From Lophium mytilinum (lineage: Eukaryota), in contig MU004193.1 in the NCBI GenBank assembly GCA_010093605.1, positions 1,692,579 through 1,756,578 of the forward strand: 64,000 nucleotides of DNA, read 5' to 3'. Positions 35,000-44,611 of the stretch are shown piece after piece. A program made the translations under genes and the position numbers. How positions within the stretch are numbered: position 1 is the first letter of the stretch; each line of letters starts with the position of its first letter. The notes beneath the pieces are model-generated. The model searched no databases. It saw nothing but the letters and a program-made list of their open reading frames with translations, and was not told the origin of the DNA.

Positions 35000-36181
35000 A
35001 TGGAGCTCTCCGGCGCACTCTCGAGTTATGCACAAGAAGAACTGACTCCTTCTATCGGGACAAAATTTGCTGGGGTCCAGCTTACAGAGATACTGAAAGA
35101 CGCTGCGCAGCTGAGGGATCTTGCGATAACAGGCTAGTTTTGAGTAGCGGAGAATATGAAATGAAAGTCACTGATTGAGCAAGCAGTGTCTCGTCGAGGT
35201 GTTGTTTTCTTTAACAACCAAGAACTCACGGTTGCGGACCACAAATCAATTGCCCAGGCTCTCGGATCCGCAGTAGGGAAGCCTCAGGACTCTCATCTCC
35301 ACCGCCATGTGCTGCTCAATGGGTCCGGTGTGACTCTTCAGGACATAGCAGAGGCTGTCGACGACGAGGTCTCGGTCGTCTCGTCAACCGACCGAATCCG
35401 AGTGATGCGAAATCGCGAACATACCAAGTCCTTGATTCCCGGTAGCCACGGATGGCATTCCGACACCTTTTGGGAGAAGATACCCTCCGACTACACTGTT
35501 CTCCATATGCTGGATGTTCCAGAAATTGGCGGTGACACCCTGTGGGCCTCCGGATATGCGGTATATGAAAAGCTCTCCCCGCAATGGCAGCGAATGCTCG
35601 ACGGCACTACAGCACTCTGCGCGACTAAAGACTACGACCATCTCCGTCAACTCATGCGCTACGACTTTGGAGGCGGTGGCCGTGGCTCACCAGAGAACAG
35701 TGGTACTAAGCTTGAAGCCATCCAGCCAGTCATCCGTACCAACCCAGTTACGGGCTGGAAATCTGTCTTTGCGGCCGCACACGCCATTGAGCATGGCTAC
35801 ATCATTGAACTCACCCCCTACGAGAATAACGTAGTGAAAGAGTATCTCCTCAAACTGATCACGCACAACGCAGACCTCCAAGTCCGGCATAGATGGACCA
35901 AGAACGATGTTGCGATTTGGGATAACCGATCCGTCTTCCATCGGGTTAATTTTGACTTCGAGGGATACAGGCGGGCGCATCGCGTTGTCTCGATTGGAGA
36001 GAAGCCGTTTTTCAGCCCTAATTCTTTGTCTAGAAGCGATGGGTTGGCAAGACGGAGAGCGTATGAACTGGAGCAGACTACTAAGAATGCGACACACACA
36101 GAGCAAAAATCGGACGATAGTTCTAAAAGGAAGGTTGAAACCAATGTCATCCAGCTTCCAGTTCAGCGTGCGAGGCTATAA
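35000..36181 (+). CDS. TauD/TfdA family 2-oxoglutarate/Fe(II) dioxygenase
   Basis: LTPSIGTKF.GVQL...LRDLAIT|VSRRGVVFF..Q, WHSD (HxD), GGDTLWASGY, PVIRTNPVTG, WDNRSVFH, R..HRV; intron 35133-35186. A further 5' exon is possible. Confidence 0.92.
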
Positions 36182-38447: not shown

Positions 38448-39233
38448 CTAAGGCCCAATAATAACATACCACAGCATGCCCAACGCATTCCCTAAGAGTG
38501 TAAATACAGTGCGCGGCTTTGGGTTATCAAGGATTACATCCGGAAACCTCTCTTCAACAAAGACGGCCTCCAGGAGCTCCTTCGACAGCGTCCCACCAGT
38601 CTGCGCCGTGTTCATCACGCCCACCGCCTGCAACAGCCTCACAAACCACAAATTCAGCGGCAGCCGGGGCGCGCCAGCTGCTCTGCTTTCTTTGTTCCGC
38701 CTGATAAACGTCTTGGCCAAGGTTCGCCGCGTTACGGGGCCGCCGTTGGCATCATCGAGCATGGCTCGGAACATGTCTGGCTGGAACGTGTAGTTGTCGC
38801 CCTGGTGGAAATCGAGGCGGGTGAAGGACGAGTCGTGCTCGATGACGTTGTGGCGGCGCGTGTCCACCAGATCGAAAGTCCCGTCCTTACCGCATAGGGG
38901 CGGGAGACTGTGGGTGAGGGCAGCGGCGGCGGTTTTATCCATGTGCAAAACGGTCATGAGGGCGTGTTGGACTTGGGGAAGCGTAATGTTCTTGCCATCG
39001 CGCGGGCTAGATGTAAGTTAGCATGTGCAGCTTCGTGATCGAGGCAGAGGGTGTAACTACAGATATCCTTGGTTTGCAAGTGCATTTAGGCCGGGGCATG
39101 GTCCTCGATCAGCGATGTCGCCGCGAATGTAGGTATGCTCGTCGTTGTCTTGGGAGTCAATGCTCTTTTGCGTGTTTTGCTTGAAATTGGAAGTGAAAAA
39201 ACTCTTCACGATATTCGTTACGCTCAAGTACAT
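38448..39233 (-). CDS. Heme-thiolate peroxidase / unspecific peroxygenase (chloroperoxidase family, short type)
   Basis: RGPCPGLNALANQGYL|PRDG (PCP proximal Cys), IEHDSSFTR.D, F.EERFP; intron 39007-39060; no evident signal peptide; hydrophobic C-terminus. Confidence 0.93.
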
Positions 39234-39895
39234 GGTGGGCTGGTACTTTGGTAGTTTTGCCAGAGAGCAAATTCCGAATGATGAGATGAATGAAGCTTTA
39301 GCTAAAAGTACGAGTACAGGTCGGATGCGCAGGAGATAGTGATTGGAAGAAGCTCATGACTTCATATCTCTTAACAGCTACGCGCTGCATGGAATCTACG
39401 GCGGTATTCAGAAGAGGCTGAAACACCAAAATTAGCCTGGGTTCGTCGTCTTGCATGAGACCAGTGATGAGGCAGAACATCCCTCCCATTCTGTACGCAT
39501 GACTGCAAGTCAGCCCAGTTGTTACACCAAATGAGAATTGGAGCGTCCGGACTGGACACAGTCAGCAGAGCTGAAGGGCTGAAAGCGCCCACCTATCAGC
39601 CTTGGGCGTACAATTAAGCCCGTAAGCAGCGCCATATGCACCTTTTATTGTCGATGTCTGATACGTTGAATGAATCCAGTGGAACGTAAGTCTATTCGAC
39701 TCGATTGATAGGCCGATGAACTCTGCACCTAGTTTGAGGAGGTGTGAGATTTCACCGAGGGCTTGAAACAGCAGCTGAAAGAACTGGACGGAGGGAGTCT
39801 CAACGCAGCCAACCGTCTTATACCTAGCCTCATTGCGCTTTCGAATAACCATTTGTCCCGAGAAAGTTCCCCGAAACTTCAACCAAGCTTTCGTC

Positions 39896-41893
39896 ATGGA
39901 AGCCCCATCGCCCAGCTTTCAAGCCAGCCTCATCCAGCGCGTACTTATCGCTACCTTCCATTTTGTCAATAGATTTATCCCCTGGTATAAACTTCCCAGT
40001 TACATCGGGGCCATCAATCTCGACGCCCTGCGCATTGAGCTCCGCGCGAATAACCTACACGATGGGTACGCCTCAAGCGCCGCTCAGGGCAATCGAATCG
40101 ACGAGCCCCTGACGAACAAGCGATTTGTAAACGCGCGTAACTCAGATGGTAAATTCAATTCGATTGAGTTGCCTCGGATGGGCTGTTCGGGCGTTCGATT
40201 TGGCCGCAACTTTTCGAGGGTAAACACGCCGAAGCCGACTGATGAACAATTGTGGAATCCGAACCCGCGTATGTTGAGTGAGCAGTTCATGACCAGGAAA
40301 TCGGGAACTTTCATCCCTGCTACAACTTTGAATTTGCTTGCGGCAGCCTGGATCCAATTTCAAGTCCACGACTGGGTGAATCATGAAACTGTGCGTTGAC
40401 TTCCGCGTCTTTATTCCATATCAAGCTTGCTGATCCCTCGTAACCTGCAGAACGACCAAACCTACGATATTCCCCTGCCTCCTGGAGACAAATGGCCGCA
40501 TGGCCATATGAAGCTGCCGCACACCAAGCCTGACAGTACGCTCCACCCATCCGATGTCAAGTGCCCTGGATACAAGAACACCAACACGGGATGGTGGGAT
40601 GGTTCGCAGATTTACGGATCCAGCGAGCCAGCCACGCAAATACTGCGAACTACGCACGCCGACGGCAAGCTATTGGTCACAAAAGAGGGCAGGGAGTCAT
40701 TCTTGCCTCGCGATGCTGCGGGAAACGTAATGACCGGGTTCAACGACAACTGGTGGATAGGTATGGAGATGCTGCATACGCTATTTGGGTGGGAGCATAA
40801 TGCGATCTGCGATATGCTGCGCGGTTCGTATCCAGATATGCCGGGGTAAGGTTTTATTTGCCGCAGAAGAGACGCATCATCTAACTGTGAGTTTAGGGAT
40901 GCAATCTTTGACAAAGCCCGCCTCGTCAACTGCGCGCTCATGGCGAAAATACACACTGTAGAATGGACGCCTGCAATATTAGCACATCCTACCCTACAAG
41001 TTGGTATGAATGCAAACTGGTGGGGCCTTGTTGGCGAGAAATTGACAAAGCTCTTGGGACGAATCTCTAAGACGAGCGAAGTTATCAGCGGGATTCCTGG
41101 CTCCGGGGTCGACCAGTTCGGAGTGCCATACTCCCTTACAGAGGAGTTCGTGTCAGTATACAGAATGCACGCCCTCGTGCCCAACAACATTGCGTTCTTC
41201 AGCGCCACGAACGGCGAGCACAAGTCAACCATTCCCGTTGAGAAAACGCTGTTCACAGAGTCGCAGGCCCCGCTCGACGATGGATTATCGTTTGCAGACA
41301 CGTTCTACTCCTTTGGCATCAATTACCCTGGGGCTATTACGAACTTCAACTATCCCGACTTCCTACGCAACTTGACCAAACCAGATAGTCAGCACCTGGA
41401 CATGGGCACCGTTGACCTCATTCGTGACCGTGAGCGCGGCGTGCCACGATACAACGAGTTCCGGCGCTTGCTGCGGATGTCGGCACCGAAGACCTTTGTA
41501 GAGTTGACTGGTGGAAATACTGCGCTCGCACAACAGCTCTCCGACGCGTACGATGGCAACGTTGAGCTCGTGGACATGCTGATCGGGTCCCATAGCGAAC
41601 CACTCATCAAGGGGTTCGGCTTTAGCGAGACCGCGTTCCGGATTTTCATTCTGATGGCAAGTAGGCGGCTGAAGAGCGATCGCTTCATTGCCGGGCAATG
41701 GAATGCAGAGACGTACACCAAGGAGGGGTTACACTGGGTACAGTATAACGGGATGAAAGATGTGCTCGGCAGGCACTTTCCAGAGTTAAAGGAGGTGTTG
41801 AAGAGGAGTAAGAATGTGTTTGCGCCGTGGGATAAGTTGGCCGAGTCGTCGAAATACGGCGGCGTAGAAACGAACGCGCCGACGGAAAAGTGA
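39896..41893 (+). CDS. Peroxidase-cyclooxygenase superfamily heme enzyme, alpha-dioxygenase-like
   Basis: AAAWIQFQVHDW (distal His), WWDGSQIYGS, KIHTVEWTPAIL, EEFVSVYRMH (Tyr and proximal His), RDRERGVPRYNEFRR, SETAFRIFILMASRRLKSDRF; introns 40391-40450 and 40846-40896; no P450 fusion. Confidence 0.92.
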
Positions 41894-42243
41894 TGACTGG
41901 GGAAACGGAATTTTAACTGTGTATCTACAAATCTCTTTCCTAGTCCTAGTGGTATCAGTCTACTTCTAGTACCTGTATAGAATATCCTTTCAGCGTAGTT
42001 CGCGGTATGGAGTGGGCAGCCATTGAAACCTAGCCGTATTCCACGCGGAGTAGACCCATCGCGTAGGCATCCGTTTACTAGTCCATCTGCTTTCTCTGAG
42101 ATGGACAGCCCCACGTGCAGCATGACCGTTTTGAGGCTATTGGGTGATAATATTTTGTATGACCTAGACACAAACATCAAAGTAATTCTAGCCGAGGCTA
42201 GCGAGGGCGTCAGCTTTGCGATCAGCAGGGAGAAATGGGTAAT

Positions 42244-42588
42244 TTAGCGACCAGAAAGCACGTAGTCGTTCTGGTCGGGATGCGCGCTCAGCTGTGCTTC
42301 TGCTTGATTGATGAGGATTGGGATGGTGTCGTTGATACAGAGGCGGAGAAAGTAGAAGTGGAGATCTCCGCCAAAGTTGCAACACCACGTCTCCATCATC
42401 GTGAACTCTTCACTCTCCGGCTCCCGCCTTAGCTCCAGTCTTCGCGTTATCTTTTTGTCATCGATCAATACAGTCGTCTCCCATGTGACTTCTCCACATA
42501 CAGCGCACTTGGCATCATGGATGCTGCAATCTCTGGAAGTGACTCTCCTGCAAATGTCATTAATCAACTGTCTCCGGGCCGCTGGCAT
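42244..42588 (-). CDS. Small hypothetical protein
   Basis: 114-aa ATG ORF with CxxC (CAVC) and WCC; no family recognised. Confidence 0.3.
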   Translation of the reverse strand: MPAARRQLINDICRRVTSRDCSIHDAKCAVCGEVTWETTVLIDDKKITRRLELRREPESEEFTMMETWCCNFGGDLHFYFLRLCINDTIPILINQAEAQLSAHPDQNDYVLSGR

Positions 42589-42784: not shown

Positions 42785-43858
42785 ATGTCCGCACTTGTGC
42801 GCGCAGTAGGCCAGTCAGGCCGCCGTTATGTTGTTGAGCGCATTCTCCAGGAAAAGCCCATGTTCCTTGAGCTTGGCTGCGTCTATCTTGCTACGTGAGT
42901 ACGCACACCTCTTCAGCAACGAGCCGAAGGCGCTGACTATCACTTTTTAGATCCGGCAATCAAAAGTACATCTTGAAAAGTGTCCAGCCGAAATCGTTCC
43001 GGTATTTCCGGAATATGTTCGACGATATCCGGAACTCTCCCTACTCTCCCTATGTCCGTATCGCCGACGATTCTATCCCCAACAAATCCATGTTCGCGTA
43101 CAAGTTCTTTAAGGGTCACCTCCTGGGTTTCGTGCAGAAAGACGTCCCGCTATCCGTGACAAAGCGCATACTGCGCGACGCCCTGCGTGGGATCGCCGCG
43201 ATGCACGACAAAGGCATCGTTCATACCGACATCAAGGCGAACAACATCATGGCAGAATGGAATGAGAAAGACGGCGAAGTAGTAGTTGAACAGGTACAGT
43301 TGGCCGATATCGAGGCTGCTGCCTATGTGCCCGATAACTCTGTTCTCAGAGGAGAGCAACTCGGAAATATCATGTGGCGGAGTCCAGAGGCGCATGCGTC
43401 CGGCGAAGTACACAAACCATCAGATATATTTTCTTTTCGCATTGTGGTGAGTCTCGTTCCGTCTCCCTTTCCATCCTGTAACCCTGATTCACTAATAAAT
43501 TACCTGCTAGTGCATTTACGCCCTCATCAAGCGAGTAATCTTTGCTGTCGGCGACGAGGAACTCCATGCGGGAGAGGAAAAATCAGCCAATGTTCTTGAA
43601 CGCCAAATATCATATTTCTCTGACCCCGAAGGGTTCGCGGGTCTGCTCCAGCATCTCGGTGAAGGCTTGTGGGTTCAGATATTCACTGTAATAGCCGATG
43701 GATTCAACGAAGAGTATCCTCGCATGCCGTTCGCGCAGTAGCCAGAAATTGAGCCAGAAGCCAGGGACGTCATTGGACGAATGATGAACATGGACCCAAA
43801 ACGGCGATTGACAGCTCATGAGGCACTGGCGCACCCGTGGTTTGCAGACGTTGCTTGA
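42785..43858 (+). CDS. Protein kinase (fungal-specific Ser/Thr kinase-like family)
   Basis: GQSGRRY..ERILQ...VYLA|..KYILK, ILRDALRGIAAMHDKGIVHTDIKANN, LADIEAA, WRSPEA, MMNMDPKRRLTAHEALAHPWF; two introns. Confidence 0.88.
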
Positions 43859-44611
43859 AGGGCTAGGACAGAACGTGGTCGTCTATCAAAATTATTTTAG
43901 CAAGACAGGGTGTCTGAAGGATGTGTATAAAGACCGGTAAACAATGTAGGGCAGAGCCTCTGACTCGCATACTCTTCTGACCAACTTCAGTCATGTCGCT
44001 TTCCATCCAGCTCACTACAATTTCTCTGGCATTGGCAGTACTAGGCCATAAGTGTGGGCACATATGTGCTAATGCTGGGTGCCGCTTTTGGAAGCCAGAT
44101 TCCCACCGTTAGGGCGGTTTCGTTGACATAAAGCCATTCATTCAAGCCAAATCAGAGTACGCTGCGCATGCTTTGACATTGCGTCAAGGCACGGGAAACT
44201 CATAGCGGTACCCCTAGCTGTAGCAAATGGTATAGATAGACTTATGGGCCGTCACTTTACGCGTCACGAAACACGATTCTCGTGCGCGCCGCAGTTTGAT
44301 GATCGATCGGGTAAAAAAAATGCTTGTGTGCACATTGGGGTGCTGTACTACTTACAACGCCATTATCCATGCAATCGAATTGAATTTGTTATATCCTTGA
44401 GTGAATAGAGTTAGCTTCAAATATTAGTTTAACCGTTATAAGCTCTCGATGTTGCATAATCCTAGCACTTGGAAGCCTTAAACAGCATAGCCCCGCTGCA
44501 GCCCAAGACGCATGAACATACACATAACACTCTACGGATCTCGAAGCGCCGTCTTTCGCGATAAACTCATGATTACAAGATACGGCAAAGTCCTGTGCGA
44601 CAAAGCCGAGC

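What the first reader, a model, noticed from the sequence alone, without database searches (positions are those of the whole stretch)
38448..41893. Divergent alpha-dioxygenase-like plus heme-thiolate peroxygenase pair: candidate fungal two-enzyme oxylipin module
Seen: head-to-head genes about 660 bp apart. One has plant alpha-DOX-like motifs (QFQVHDW, EEFVSVYRMH, ASRRLKSDRF) and lacks the P450 domain of fungal Ppo/linoleate diol synthases. The other is a PCP/EHD heme-thiolate peroxygenase with no evident signal peptide and a hydrophobic C-terminal helix. Known: alpha-DOX makes 2-hydroperoxy fatty acids; in Arabidopsis, alpha-DOX1 works with the caleosin peroxygenase CLO3 to give 2-hydroxy fatty acids; heme-thiolate peroxygenases use peroxides as oxidant. 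Inference: a co-regulated intracellular module in which the peroxygenase consumes the DOX hydroperoxide, convergent on the plant system. A single CCGAGG (FarA-type site) at 39755-39760 is consistent but weak.
Basis: partly seen in the sequence, partly recalled or inferred. Interest (0 to 1): 0.75.

Follow-up and report, generated by a model that had tools for sequence, protein, structure and literature searches.

The report
Fungal alpha-dioxygenase with glutamate-less peroxygenase partner
Many unrelated sac fungi keep a plant-type fatty-acid alpha-dioxygenase gene next to a peroxygenase-family gene that has lost its usual hydrogen-peroxide-splitting residue, which suggests an undescribed two-enzyme route that makes a fatty-acid peroxide and then converts it.

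Summary
The genes are an intact 628-aa alpha-dioxygenase (alpha-DOX) homologue and a 243-aa heme-thiolate protein (HTP), head-to-head 662 bp apart. The DOX keeps the rice catalytic and carboxylate-binding residues and has no P450 domain.

The pair is conserved. It is head-to-head in 13 of 13 informative fungal metagenome loci, has consecutive gene identifiers in 22 genera of six ascomycete classes, and is absent from 103 bacterial DOX loci.

The HTP belongs to a separate clade in which the catalytic distal glutamate of peroxygenases is glutamine (181 of 218; Asn 15, Ile 14, Glu 2). It is therefore unlikely to be an ordinary H2O2-driven peroxygenase. Amide or non-polar residues at the distal site typify hydroperoxide-converting P450s. 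Best reading: the HTP is a self-sufficient converter of the DOX 2-hydroperoxide, standing in for the P450 domain of Ppo enzymes. The product is unknown and no activity was tested.

The FarA-type site looks like chance. Co-expression was not shown. Ten literature searches found no description of the pair. This scan earlier noted bacterial alpha-DOX partners, but not this fungal pair.

The parts
39896..41893 (+). Alpha-dioxygenase-like gene, 3 exons (39896-40390, 40451-40845, 40897-41893), 628 aa; H158, Y385, H388, H316, T321, R554 intact; no P450 domain
38448..39233 (-). Short heme-thiolate (PF01328) gene, 2 exons (39233-39061, 39006-38448), 243 aa; C46 ligand, E114-H115-D116-S118, Gln184 in place of the catalytic Glu; no signal-peptide-like N-terminus
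39234..39895 (.). Shared divergent spacer, 662 bp; 7 GCTGA/TCAGC pentamers and 2 AGCTGA hexamers, a motif enriched about tenfold in the related spacers
39755..39760 (+). CCGAGG (FarA-type hexamer); present but chance-level and not conserved
39007..39060 (-). HTP intron, spliced in a public contig

Best explanation
A two-gene fatty-acid alpha-oxygenation module inherited as a unit. Step 1 (inferred from full residue and fold conservation, not assayed): the alpha-DOX uses its Tyr385 radical to add O2 at C2 of a free fatty acid, giving a 2R-hydroperoxy fatty acid. Step 2 (inferred): the non-secreted HTP, whose catalytic Glu is an amide residue, takes that lipid hydroperoxide as its own substrate. 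It cleaves the O-O bond without H2O2 or a co-substrate, as the P450 companions of fungal Ppo enzymes, plant CYP74 and prostacyclin synthase do. Likely outcomes are intramolecular oxygen transfer (2-hydroxy-epoxy or 2,x-dihydroxy acids), or lyase/dehydrase chemistry (Cn-1 aldehyde plus CO2, or a 2-oxo acid). Shown: gene structures, residues, folds, linkage, co-divergence and the Glu-to-Gln change. Inferred: all chemistry and the coupling.
For: DOX: Foldseek TM 0.82 to rice alpha-DOX against at most 0.64 for other listed families. Of 13 rice substrate-channel residues (list from PMC8720084), 12 are identical and M325 is L330. H316, R554 and F547 are in 120 of 120 homologues, Y385 in 119 of 120.

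Linkage: HTP head-to-head in 13 of 13 fungal-type metagenome loci with at least 600 bp upstream (12 distinct; spacers 294-939 bp), in 0 of 23 bacterial-type loci and 0 of 80 named bacterial loci. Consecutive identifiers in 22 genera. Flanking genes are not shared: 0 hits from 234 flank segments in 8 loci. Distances of the two proteins co-vary over 23 pairs (rho 0.62; 0 of 5000 free and 0 of 5000 within-class permutations).

HTP: Q184 sits in the column that is Glu in 55 of the 70 rows from the wider search and invariant Glu in a 22-sequence control profile. The column is Q 181, N 15, I 14, E 2 of 218 clade members. The clade is monophyletic with Gln at its base. The Glu is the catalyst of H2O2 heterolysis (PMC9137552, PMC13394420, PMC13659817). 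LDS, EAS, plant AOS and PGIS carry a distal Asn, and TXS and 8S/9S-AOS a non-polar residue (PMC13049297).
Against: No activity is measured for either protein. In run X1 the HTP intron is spliced, but the only DOX contig is unspliced, so no spliced DOX mRNA and no co-expression were seen (contigs show presence, not absence). One of 10 DOX-adjacent metagenome HTPs covering the site has Glu (L010), and two nested clade members do too, so the amide is not obligatory. The review notes that distal Asn is dispensable in LDS and EAS, so the residue does not fix the chemistry. 2-Hydroperoxy acids decarboxylate spontaneously and characterised alpha-DOX work alone. Two other fungal DOX clades (Pleosporales; Xylariales/Endocarpon) and several main-clade genera have no partner identified. 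The HTP model is of moderate quality (pLDDT 68.9), and its pocket could not be inspected.
Confidence: 0.45

Rival explanations
1. Caleosin-like coupling: the HTP reduces the 2-hydroperoxide to a 2-hydroxy fatty acid and passes the oxygen to a separate co-substrate, as suggested for Arabidopsis alpha-DOX1 with CLO3.
For: The same linkage data. The plant pairing is described in PMC13247531. Occasional Glu reversions in the clade fit retained heterolysis.
Against: The HTP is unrelated to caleosins. The acid-base Glu needed for normal Compound I formation is absent in nearly all members. No co-substrate gene is conserved nearby.
Confidence: 0.22
2. The HTP is a non-catalytic or protective partner: it binds lipid or heme, sets the peroxide tone that starts the DOX tyrosyl radical, or removes hydroperoxide to stop self-inactivation. 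The DOX alone makes Cn-1 aldehydes.
For: Loss of the catalytic Glu, and Ile/Val at that site in one Sordariomycete subclade. Single alpha-DOX enzymes give aldehydes unaided.
Against: The Cys ligand, the EHD-S metal site and His115 are kept. Identity stays 67-80% across four classes, which points to a constrained active site.
Confidence: 0.15
3. The pair works together but on something other than a free straight-chain fatty acid (branched, hydroxylated, sphingolipid-derived or polyketide acids), or the HTP acts upstream of the DOX.
For: No fungal member has a measured substrate in the papers found. Cyanobacterial alpha-DOX already differ from plant enzymes in chain preference.
Against: The substrate channel matches the rice palmitate-binding set at 12 of 13 positions. 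No biosynthetic gene cluster travels with the pair.
Confidence: 0.11
4. The genes merely share a bidirectional promoter and answer to the same signal, with no shared metabolite.
For: A hexamer is enriched in the spacers. No co-expression or shared product is shown.
Against: A dedicated HTP clade found, wherever testable, beside this DOX in six classes, with co-varying distances, while other neighbours are lost. Other HTPs of the same genome keep the Glu.
Confidence: 0.07

Closest known systems
Plant and cyanobacterial fatty-acid alpha-dioxygenases (rice 4KVJ/4KVL, Arabidopsis 4HHR/4HHS, CalDOX, LepDOX, CsDOX)
   Same: Fold (TM 0.82), length, Tyr/His catalytic set, His-Thr-Arg carboxylate site.
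   Different: 34-35% identity to the plant enzymes against 57-59% to Saprospirales proteins. Ascomycete sequences were noted but not characterised in PMC8720084. Fixed genomic partner.
Fungal DOX-CYP fusions (Ppo; LDS, EAS, AOS)
   Same: A peroxidase-cyclooxygenase-family DOX coupled to a cysteine-ligated heme with an amide or non-polar distal residue.
   Different: The partner is a separate gene of the PF01328 fold, not a P450. The DOX is alpha-type; it matches this genome's other PF03098 loci only at 20-32% over short stretches.
Nostoc punctiforme 10S-DOX plus catalase-related hydroperoxide lyase
   Same: Separate-gene DOX with a peroxide-enzyme fold reused as a lipid hydroperoxide converter (PMC13049297).
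   Different: Different partner fold and oxygenation position; bacterial.
Short unspecific peroxygenases (MroUPO, CviUPO, HspUPO, DcaUPO) and chloroperoxidase
   Same: Fold (Z 10.6, rmsd 2.7, 118 aligned to DcaUPO), PCP, EHD-S, His charge stabiliser.
   Different: Catalytic Glu replaced by Gln, no signal-peptide-like N-terminus, a more hydrophobic last helix, and linkage to a DOX.
Arabidopsis alpha-DOX1 plus caleosin CLO3
   Same: Alpha-DOX with a hydroperoxide-using partner (PMC13247531).
   Different: Unrelated partner family; genomic linkage here; product unknown.

Membership tests
Fatty-acid alpha-dioxygenase | Alpha-DOX fold without a P450 domain | tested here: met
   TM 0.82 to 4KVL; only PF03098 on the exons
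Fatty-acid alpha-dioxygenase | Catalytic Tyr, distal and proximal His, stacking Phe pair | tested here: met
   Y385, H158, H388, F381, F547 = rice Y379, H157, H382, F375, F552
Fatty-acid alpha-dioxygenase | His/Thr/Arg site that holds the carboxylate and places C2 | tested here: met
   H316, T321, R554 = rice H311, T316, R559; 119-120 of 120 homologues
Fatty-acid alpha-dioxygenase | Forms 2R-hydroperoxy fatty acids | not testable with these tools
   Needs an enzyme assay
Fungal Ppo / DOX-CYP fusion | Fused C-terminal P450 domain | tested here: not met
   628 aa, stop at 41893, no P450 match
Heme-thiolate peroxidase superfamily (PF01328) | PCP ligand motif, E-H/G-D-x-S metal site, fold | tested here: met
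Short unspecific peroxygenase (UPO) | Distal Glu-His acid-base pair for H2O2 activation | tested here: not met
   His115 kept; the Glu position is Gln184 by MAFFT, HMM and hhalign alignments; no acidic residue in helix 175-192 of this protein
Short unspecific peroxygenase (UPO) | Secretion signal peptide | tested here: inconclusive
   Hydropathy only: 2 of 44 against 30 of 52 controls; points to absence, no SignalP run
Short unspecific peroxygenase (UPO) | H2O2-dependent oxygen transfer | not testable with these tools
   Needs an assay
Self-sufficient hydroperoxide isomerase/lyase (CYP74, LDS, EAS, PGIS type) | P450 fold | tested here: not met
   Fold is PF01328/UPO; the claim is 'works like', not membership
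Self-sufficient hydroperoxide isomerase/lyase (CYP74, LDS, EAS, PGIS type) | Thiolate heme with an amide or non-polar distal residue | tested here: met
   C46 plus Q/N/I at the distal position; by alignment, not by a solved structure
   0 of 12 related spacers; 23% chance in the window

The most novel reading that the evidence does not exclude
A whole clade of the peroxygenase superfamily has been converted into an intracellular, H2O2-independent lipid-hydroperoxide isomerase or lyase dedicated to a bacterially derived alpha-dioxygenase. This would be a third independent fold, after P450 and catalase, recruited as a DOX companion. It would make an unrecognised class of C2-oxygenated fungal oxylipins across six ascomycete classes and give a defined natural substrate to a UPO-family protein.
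Probability: 0.4. Interest if true: 0.88.

Novelty: new variant of a known kind. Interest (0 to 1): 0.78.

Why it matters
The natural role of UPO-family enzymes is open; they are studied mostly as secreted biocatalysts. Here one clade comes with a fixed partner that predicts its substrate, and with one residue (Q184) that predicts its chemistry, so two purified proteins and LC-MS can test it. It would add an alpha-oxygenation branch to fungal oxylipin biology, which the 2026 review describes through DOX-CYP fusions while assigning alpha-DOX to plants and cyanobacteria. It would also show the UPO fold converging on CYP74-type catalysis. Fungal alpha-DOX enzymes are candidates for fatty-aldehyde production.

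Tried and rejected
FarA site: rejected as chance.

Ppo/LDS identity: rejected.

Alternative register placing the Glu at R181, suggested by gapless pairwise alignments to MroUPO and MweUPO: rejected after the wider alignment, HMM and hhalign all gave Q184. This protein has no acidic residue in that helix in either register.

Larger cluster with the TauD gene or other neighbours: no hits in 8 related loci.

C-terminal transmembrane anchor: only 13 of 45 reach the hydropathy threshold, and the helix lies in the UPO-aligned range; left open.

Complex prediction DOX+HTP+heme: no verdict (score 0.00, alignments not used), counted neither way.

Run X2, a soil metatranscriptome with a small share, gave short diverged contigs on both genes; not used.

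HTP partners in bacterial loci: none. ESM Atlas gave only generic Peroxidase_2 clusters. The first IQ-TREE run on 95 rows did not finish; FastTree and a 29-row IQ-TREE were used. Plant sequences were not in the trees.

Literature searches found no paper on the pair or on a Gln-type HTP clade. The library lacks most subscription papers, and no supplements were read. The 2013 A. terreus DOX paper (PMC3630850) is not held. I recall, unverified, that it expressed several A. terreus DOX homologues; it may bear on ATEG_03580 (P0034), a member of this clade.

Full report
Gene models. The + strand gene has exons 39896-40390, 40451-40845 and 40897-41893 and encodes 628 aa. The - strand gene has exons 39233-39061 and 39006-38448 and encodes 243 aa. 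Both match annotated proteins with consecutive accessions, KAF2493084.1 and KAF2493083.1, named Lophium mytilinum. The start codons are 662 bp apart. Pfam gives An_peroxidase on the three DOX exons and Peroxidase_2 on both HTP exons. A search of the genome with exon 3 finds only this locus. Family searches find other PF03098 and PF01328 loci. The other PF03098 loci match this DOX only at 20-32% over short stretches; I did not check them for P450 domains.

The dioxygenase. The best solved relatives by sequence are Arabidopsis and rice alpha-DOX (E about 1e-111; next family 2e-15). The AlphaFold model (pLDDT 76.6, pTM 0.82) matches rice 4KVL with TM 0.82 and 35% identity; other listed families reach at most 0.64. 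I mapped the rice residue list of Kim et al. (PMC8720084, passages read) onto the alignments. H157, Y379, H382 and F375 are H158, Y385, H388 and F381. Of the 13 channel residues 12 are identical, including H311, T316 and R559 (H316, T321, R554); M325 is L330. Y385, H388, F381, H316, T321 and R554 are kept in 119-120 of the 120 homologues aligned, H158 in 118. That paper already notes ascomycete alpha-DOX sequences, uncharacterised. In a 29-row IQ-TREE (C20 PMSF) the 16 fungal sequences form one clade (99/99) whose nearest relatives are Saprospirales proteins (99/100), inside bacterial diversity. FastTree on 95 rows left three fungal clades and the Saprospirales unresolved. No plant rows were included, so bacterial origin is likely but not tested against plants.

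Linkage. The metagenome scan returned 42 loci. Nineteen are fungal-type, and six of those have under 100 bp upstream. The other 13 (12 distinct) all carry the HTP on the opposite strand, 294-939 bp away. None of the 23 bacterial-type loci and none of 80 named bacterial loci has it. Consecutive locus tags or accessions link the two proteins in 22 genera: Lophium, Mytilinidion, Venturia, Cladosporium, Baudoinia, Exophiala, Rhinocladiella, Fonsecaea, Cladophialophora, Ikaeria, Kuettlingeria, Heterodermia, Dactylellina, Orbilia, Cadophora, Drepanopeziza, Hirsutella, Ophiocordyceps, Thozetella, Diplogelasinospora, Fusarium and Apiospora. These span six classes (class assignment from my own knowledge). 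All 5 pairs chosen for the last look-up were consecutive. Exceptions: one Orbilia assembly has accessions 109 apart on contigs of equal length, and one Fusarium assembly has them two apart. Identifiers show adjacency, not orientation. Pairs could be scored only where both identifiers were visible. No partner was seen for Marasmius, Sordaria, Beauveria, Diplodia, Aspergillus terreus or the Pleosporales and Xylariales DOX clades; the searches were capped, so this is not absence.

Co-divergence. Over 23 pairs (seven matched by genus or contig length only), the distance matrices correlate at rho 0.62. None of 5000 free or 5000 within-class permutations reached this value (within-class mean 0.23). 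Kinship still contributes. More telling, the Lophium HTP groups with lichen, black-yeast and Orbiliomycete sequences rather than with Cladosporium or Hortaea, and so does its DOX. Window flanking genes gave 0 hits from 234 segments in 8 related loci: only the pair travels.

The partner is not a normal peroxygenase. The fold is that of short UPOs (Z 10.6, rmsd 2.7, 118 aligned to DcaUPO; model pLDDT 68.9). C46, E114, H115, D116 and S118 are kept. In short UPOs a distal Glu (Glu157 of MroUPO) pairs with that His to activate H2O2 (PMC9137552, PMC13394420, PMC13659817, PMC6417270; passages). Pairwise alignments were ambiguous by three residues. I therefore aligned 45 clade members with 70 representatives from the HMMER search; the 70 include two clade members. 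Q184 falls in the column that is Glu in 55 of those 70. A control profile of 22 Glu-type sequences, picked from that set, aligns its invariant Glu to Q184 by hhalign and by hmmsearch. Among 218 clade sequences the site is Q 181, N 15, I 14, E 2, other or gap 6. The clade has a long stem, support 99 and Gln in its basal rows. The Ile/Val group and the two Glu rows are nested. Of 10 DOX-adjacent metagenome copies covering the site, 9 have Gln and 1 has Glu. Two other HTPs of this genome keep the Glu. By hydropathy, 2 of 44 clade members against 30 of 52 Glu-type controls have a signal-like N-terminus.

Mechanism. Oliw's review (PMC13049297, passages) states that LDS, EAS, plant AOS and PGIS have a distal Asn, that TXS and 8S/9S-AOS have a non-polar residue, and that these enzymes cleave lipid peroxides self-sufficiently. 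It also states that the Asn can be dispensable. A thiolate heme with Gln, Asn or Ile at the distal site, fixed beside a hydroperoxide-forming DOX that lacks its own P450, fits this pattern. I infer that the HTP converts the 2R-hydroperoxide (0.45 as isomerase or lyase, 0.22 as a CLO3-like reductase/peroxygenase; plant pairing from PMC13247531, passages). The sequence cannot give the product. Protective or non-catalytic (0.15), other-substrate (0.11) and co-regulation-only (0.07) readings remain.

Regulation and expression. The FarA-type hexamer is one of 25 in the window and is absent from 12 of 12 related spacers. AGCTGA occurs in 12 of 13 spacers (shuffle maxima 8-10) and at 6.4 per kb against 0.62 per kb in the rest of those loci. 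Several loci are close kin and the control is largely coding, so this is a lead. In run X1 (RNA by guess) the HTP intron and neighbouring introns are spliced, but the DOX lies on one unspliced contig. Co-expression is not shown. The complex prediction gave no verdict.

Novelty. Ten searches found no description of the pair or of the Gln clade. I read passages of eight papers, including PMC4420034, which notes variability at the HTP distal side; the rest I saw only as listings. No supplements were read, and one relevant paper was not held. This scan's earlier notes describe bacterial alpha-DOX genes beside P450-like, DyP or catalase-like partners (unchecked) and nothing on this pair. The logic of a DOX plus a heme companion is known; the companion fold, its active-site change and the fungal alpha-DOX setting appear new. 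Verdict: new variant of a known kind, interest 0.78.

Noticed in passing
window 39234-39895 and spacers of L006-L037: AGCTGA (often in GTMAGC/GCTKAC-like contexts) is about tenfold enriched in the divergent spacers; candidate shared cis-element, factor unknown.
   Followed up: partly
P0014, P0017, P0035 (Marasmius): Basidiomycete DOX copies nest among ascomycete sequences next to Diplodia; two copies lie 22 accessions apart in one species. Possible transfer from an ascomycete; partner unknown.
   Followed up: partly
L004, L064-L073 (Saprospirales and other Bacteroidota): Nearest non-fungal relatives of the fungal alpha-DOX (57-59% identity), without an HTP neighbour; suggests bacterial origin of the fungal gene.
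   Followed up: partly
P0445, P0476, P0484, P0487, P0493: A second, separate HTP clade (support 98) has Asn at the catalytic Glu position; context unknown.
   Followed up: no
P0329, P0330, P0337, P0339, P0350, P0364, P0366, P0369: Sordariomycete subclade with Ile/Val at the distal site, still DOX-adjacent in Fusarium, Thozetella and Apiospora; may make a different product.
   Followed up: partly
window 42937-43860 (+): Protein-kinase-like gene with an in-frame TAG at 43739-43741, after which kinase-like sequence continues; probable pseudogene.
   Followed up: no
window 36.9-38.1 kb (+): Five-exon gene convergent with the HTP, spliced in run X1; no Pfam match on the two segments tested; not conserved beside the pair.
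   Followed up: no
window 35165-36181 (+): TauD/TfdA dioxygenase; not conserved beside the pair.
   Followed up: partly
window 39530-42325: The only X1 contig over the DOX is unspliced (both introns kept); pre-mRNA, antisense or DNA cannot be told apart. Both DOX introns are multiples of three with in-frame stops.
   Followed up: no
L009 HTP exon 1; P0550: An in-frame stop in one DOX-adjacent HTP and an 83-aa annotation in one Fusarium strain; possible broken copies or errors.
   Followed up: no
L095, L109, L123, L124, L015, L027, L028, L032: Bacterial alpha-DOX open frames of 826-1758 aa, suggesting fusions.
   Followed up: no
P0001 residues 278-279: Gly-Trp where the close Mytilinidion protein and the consensus have Ala-Leu; effect unknown.
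   Followed up: no
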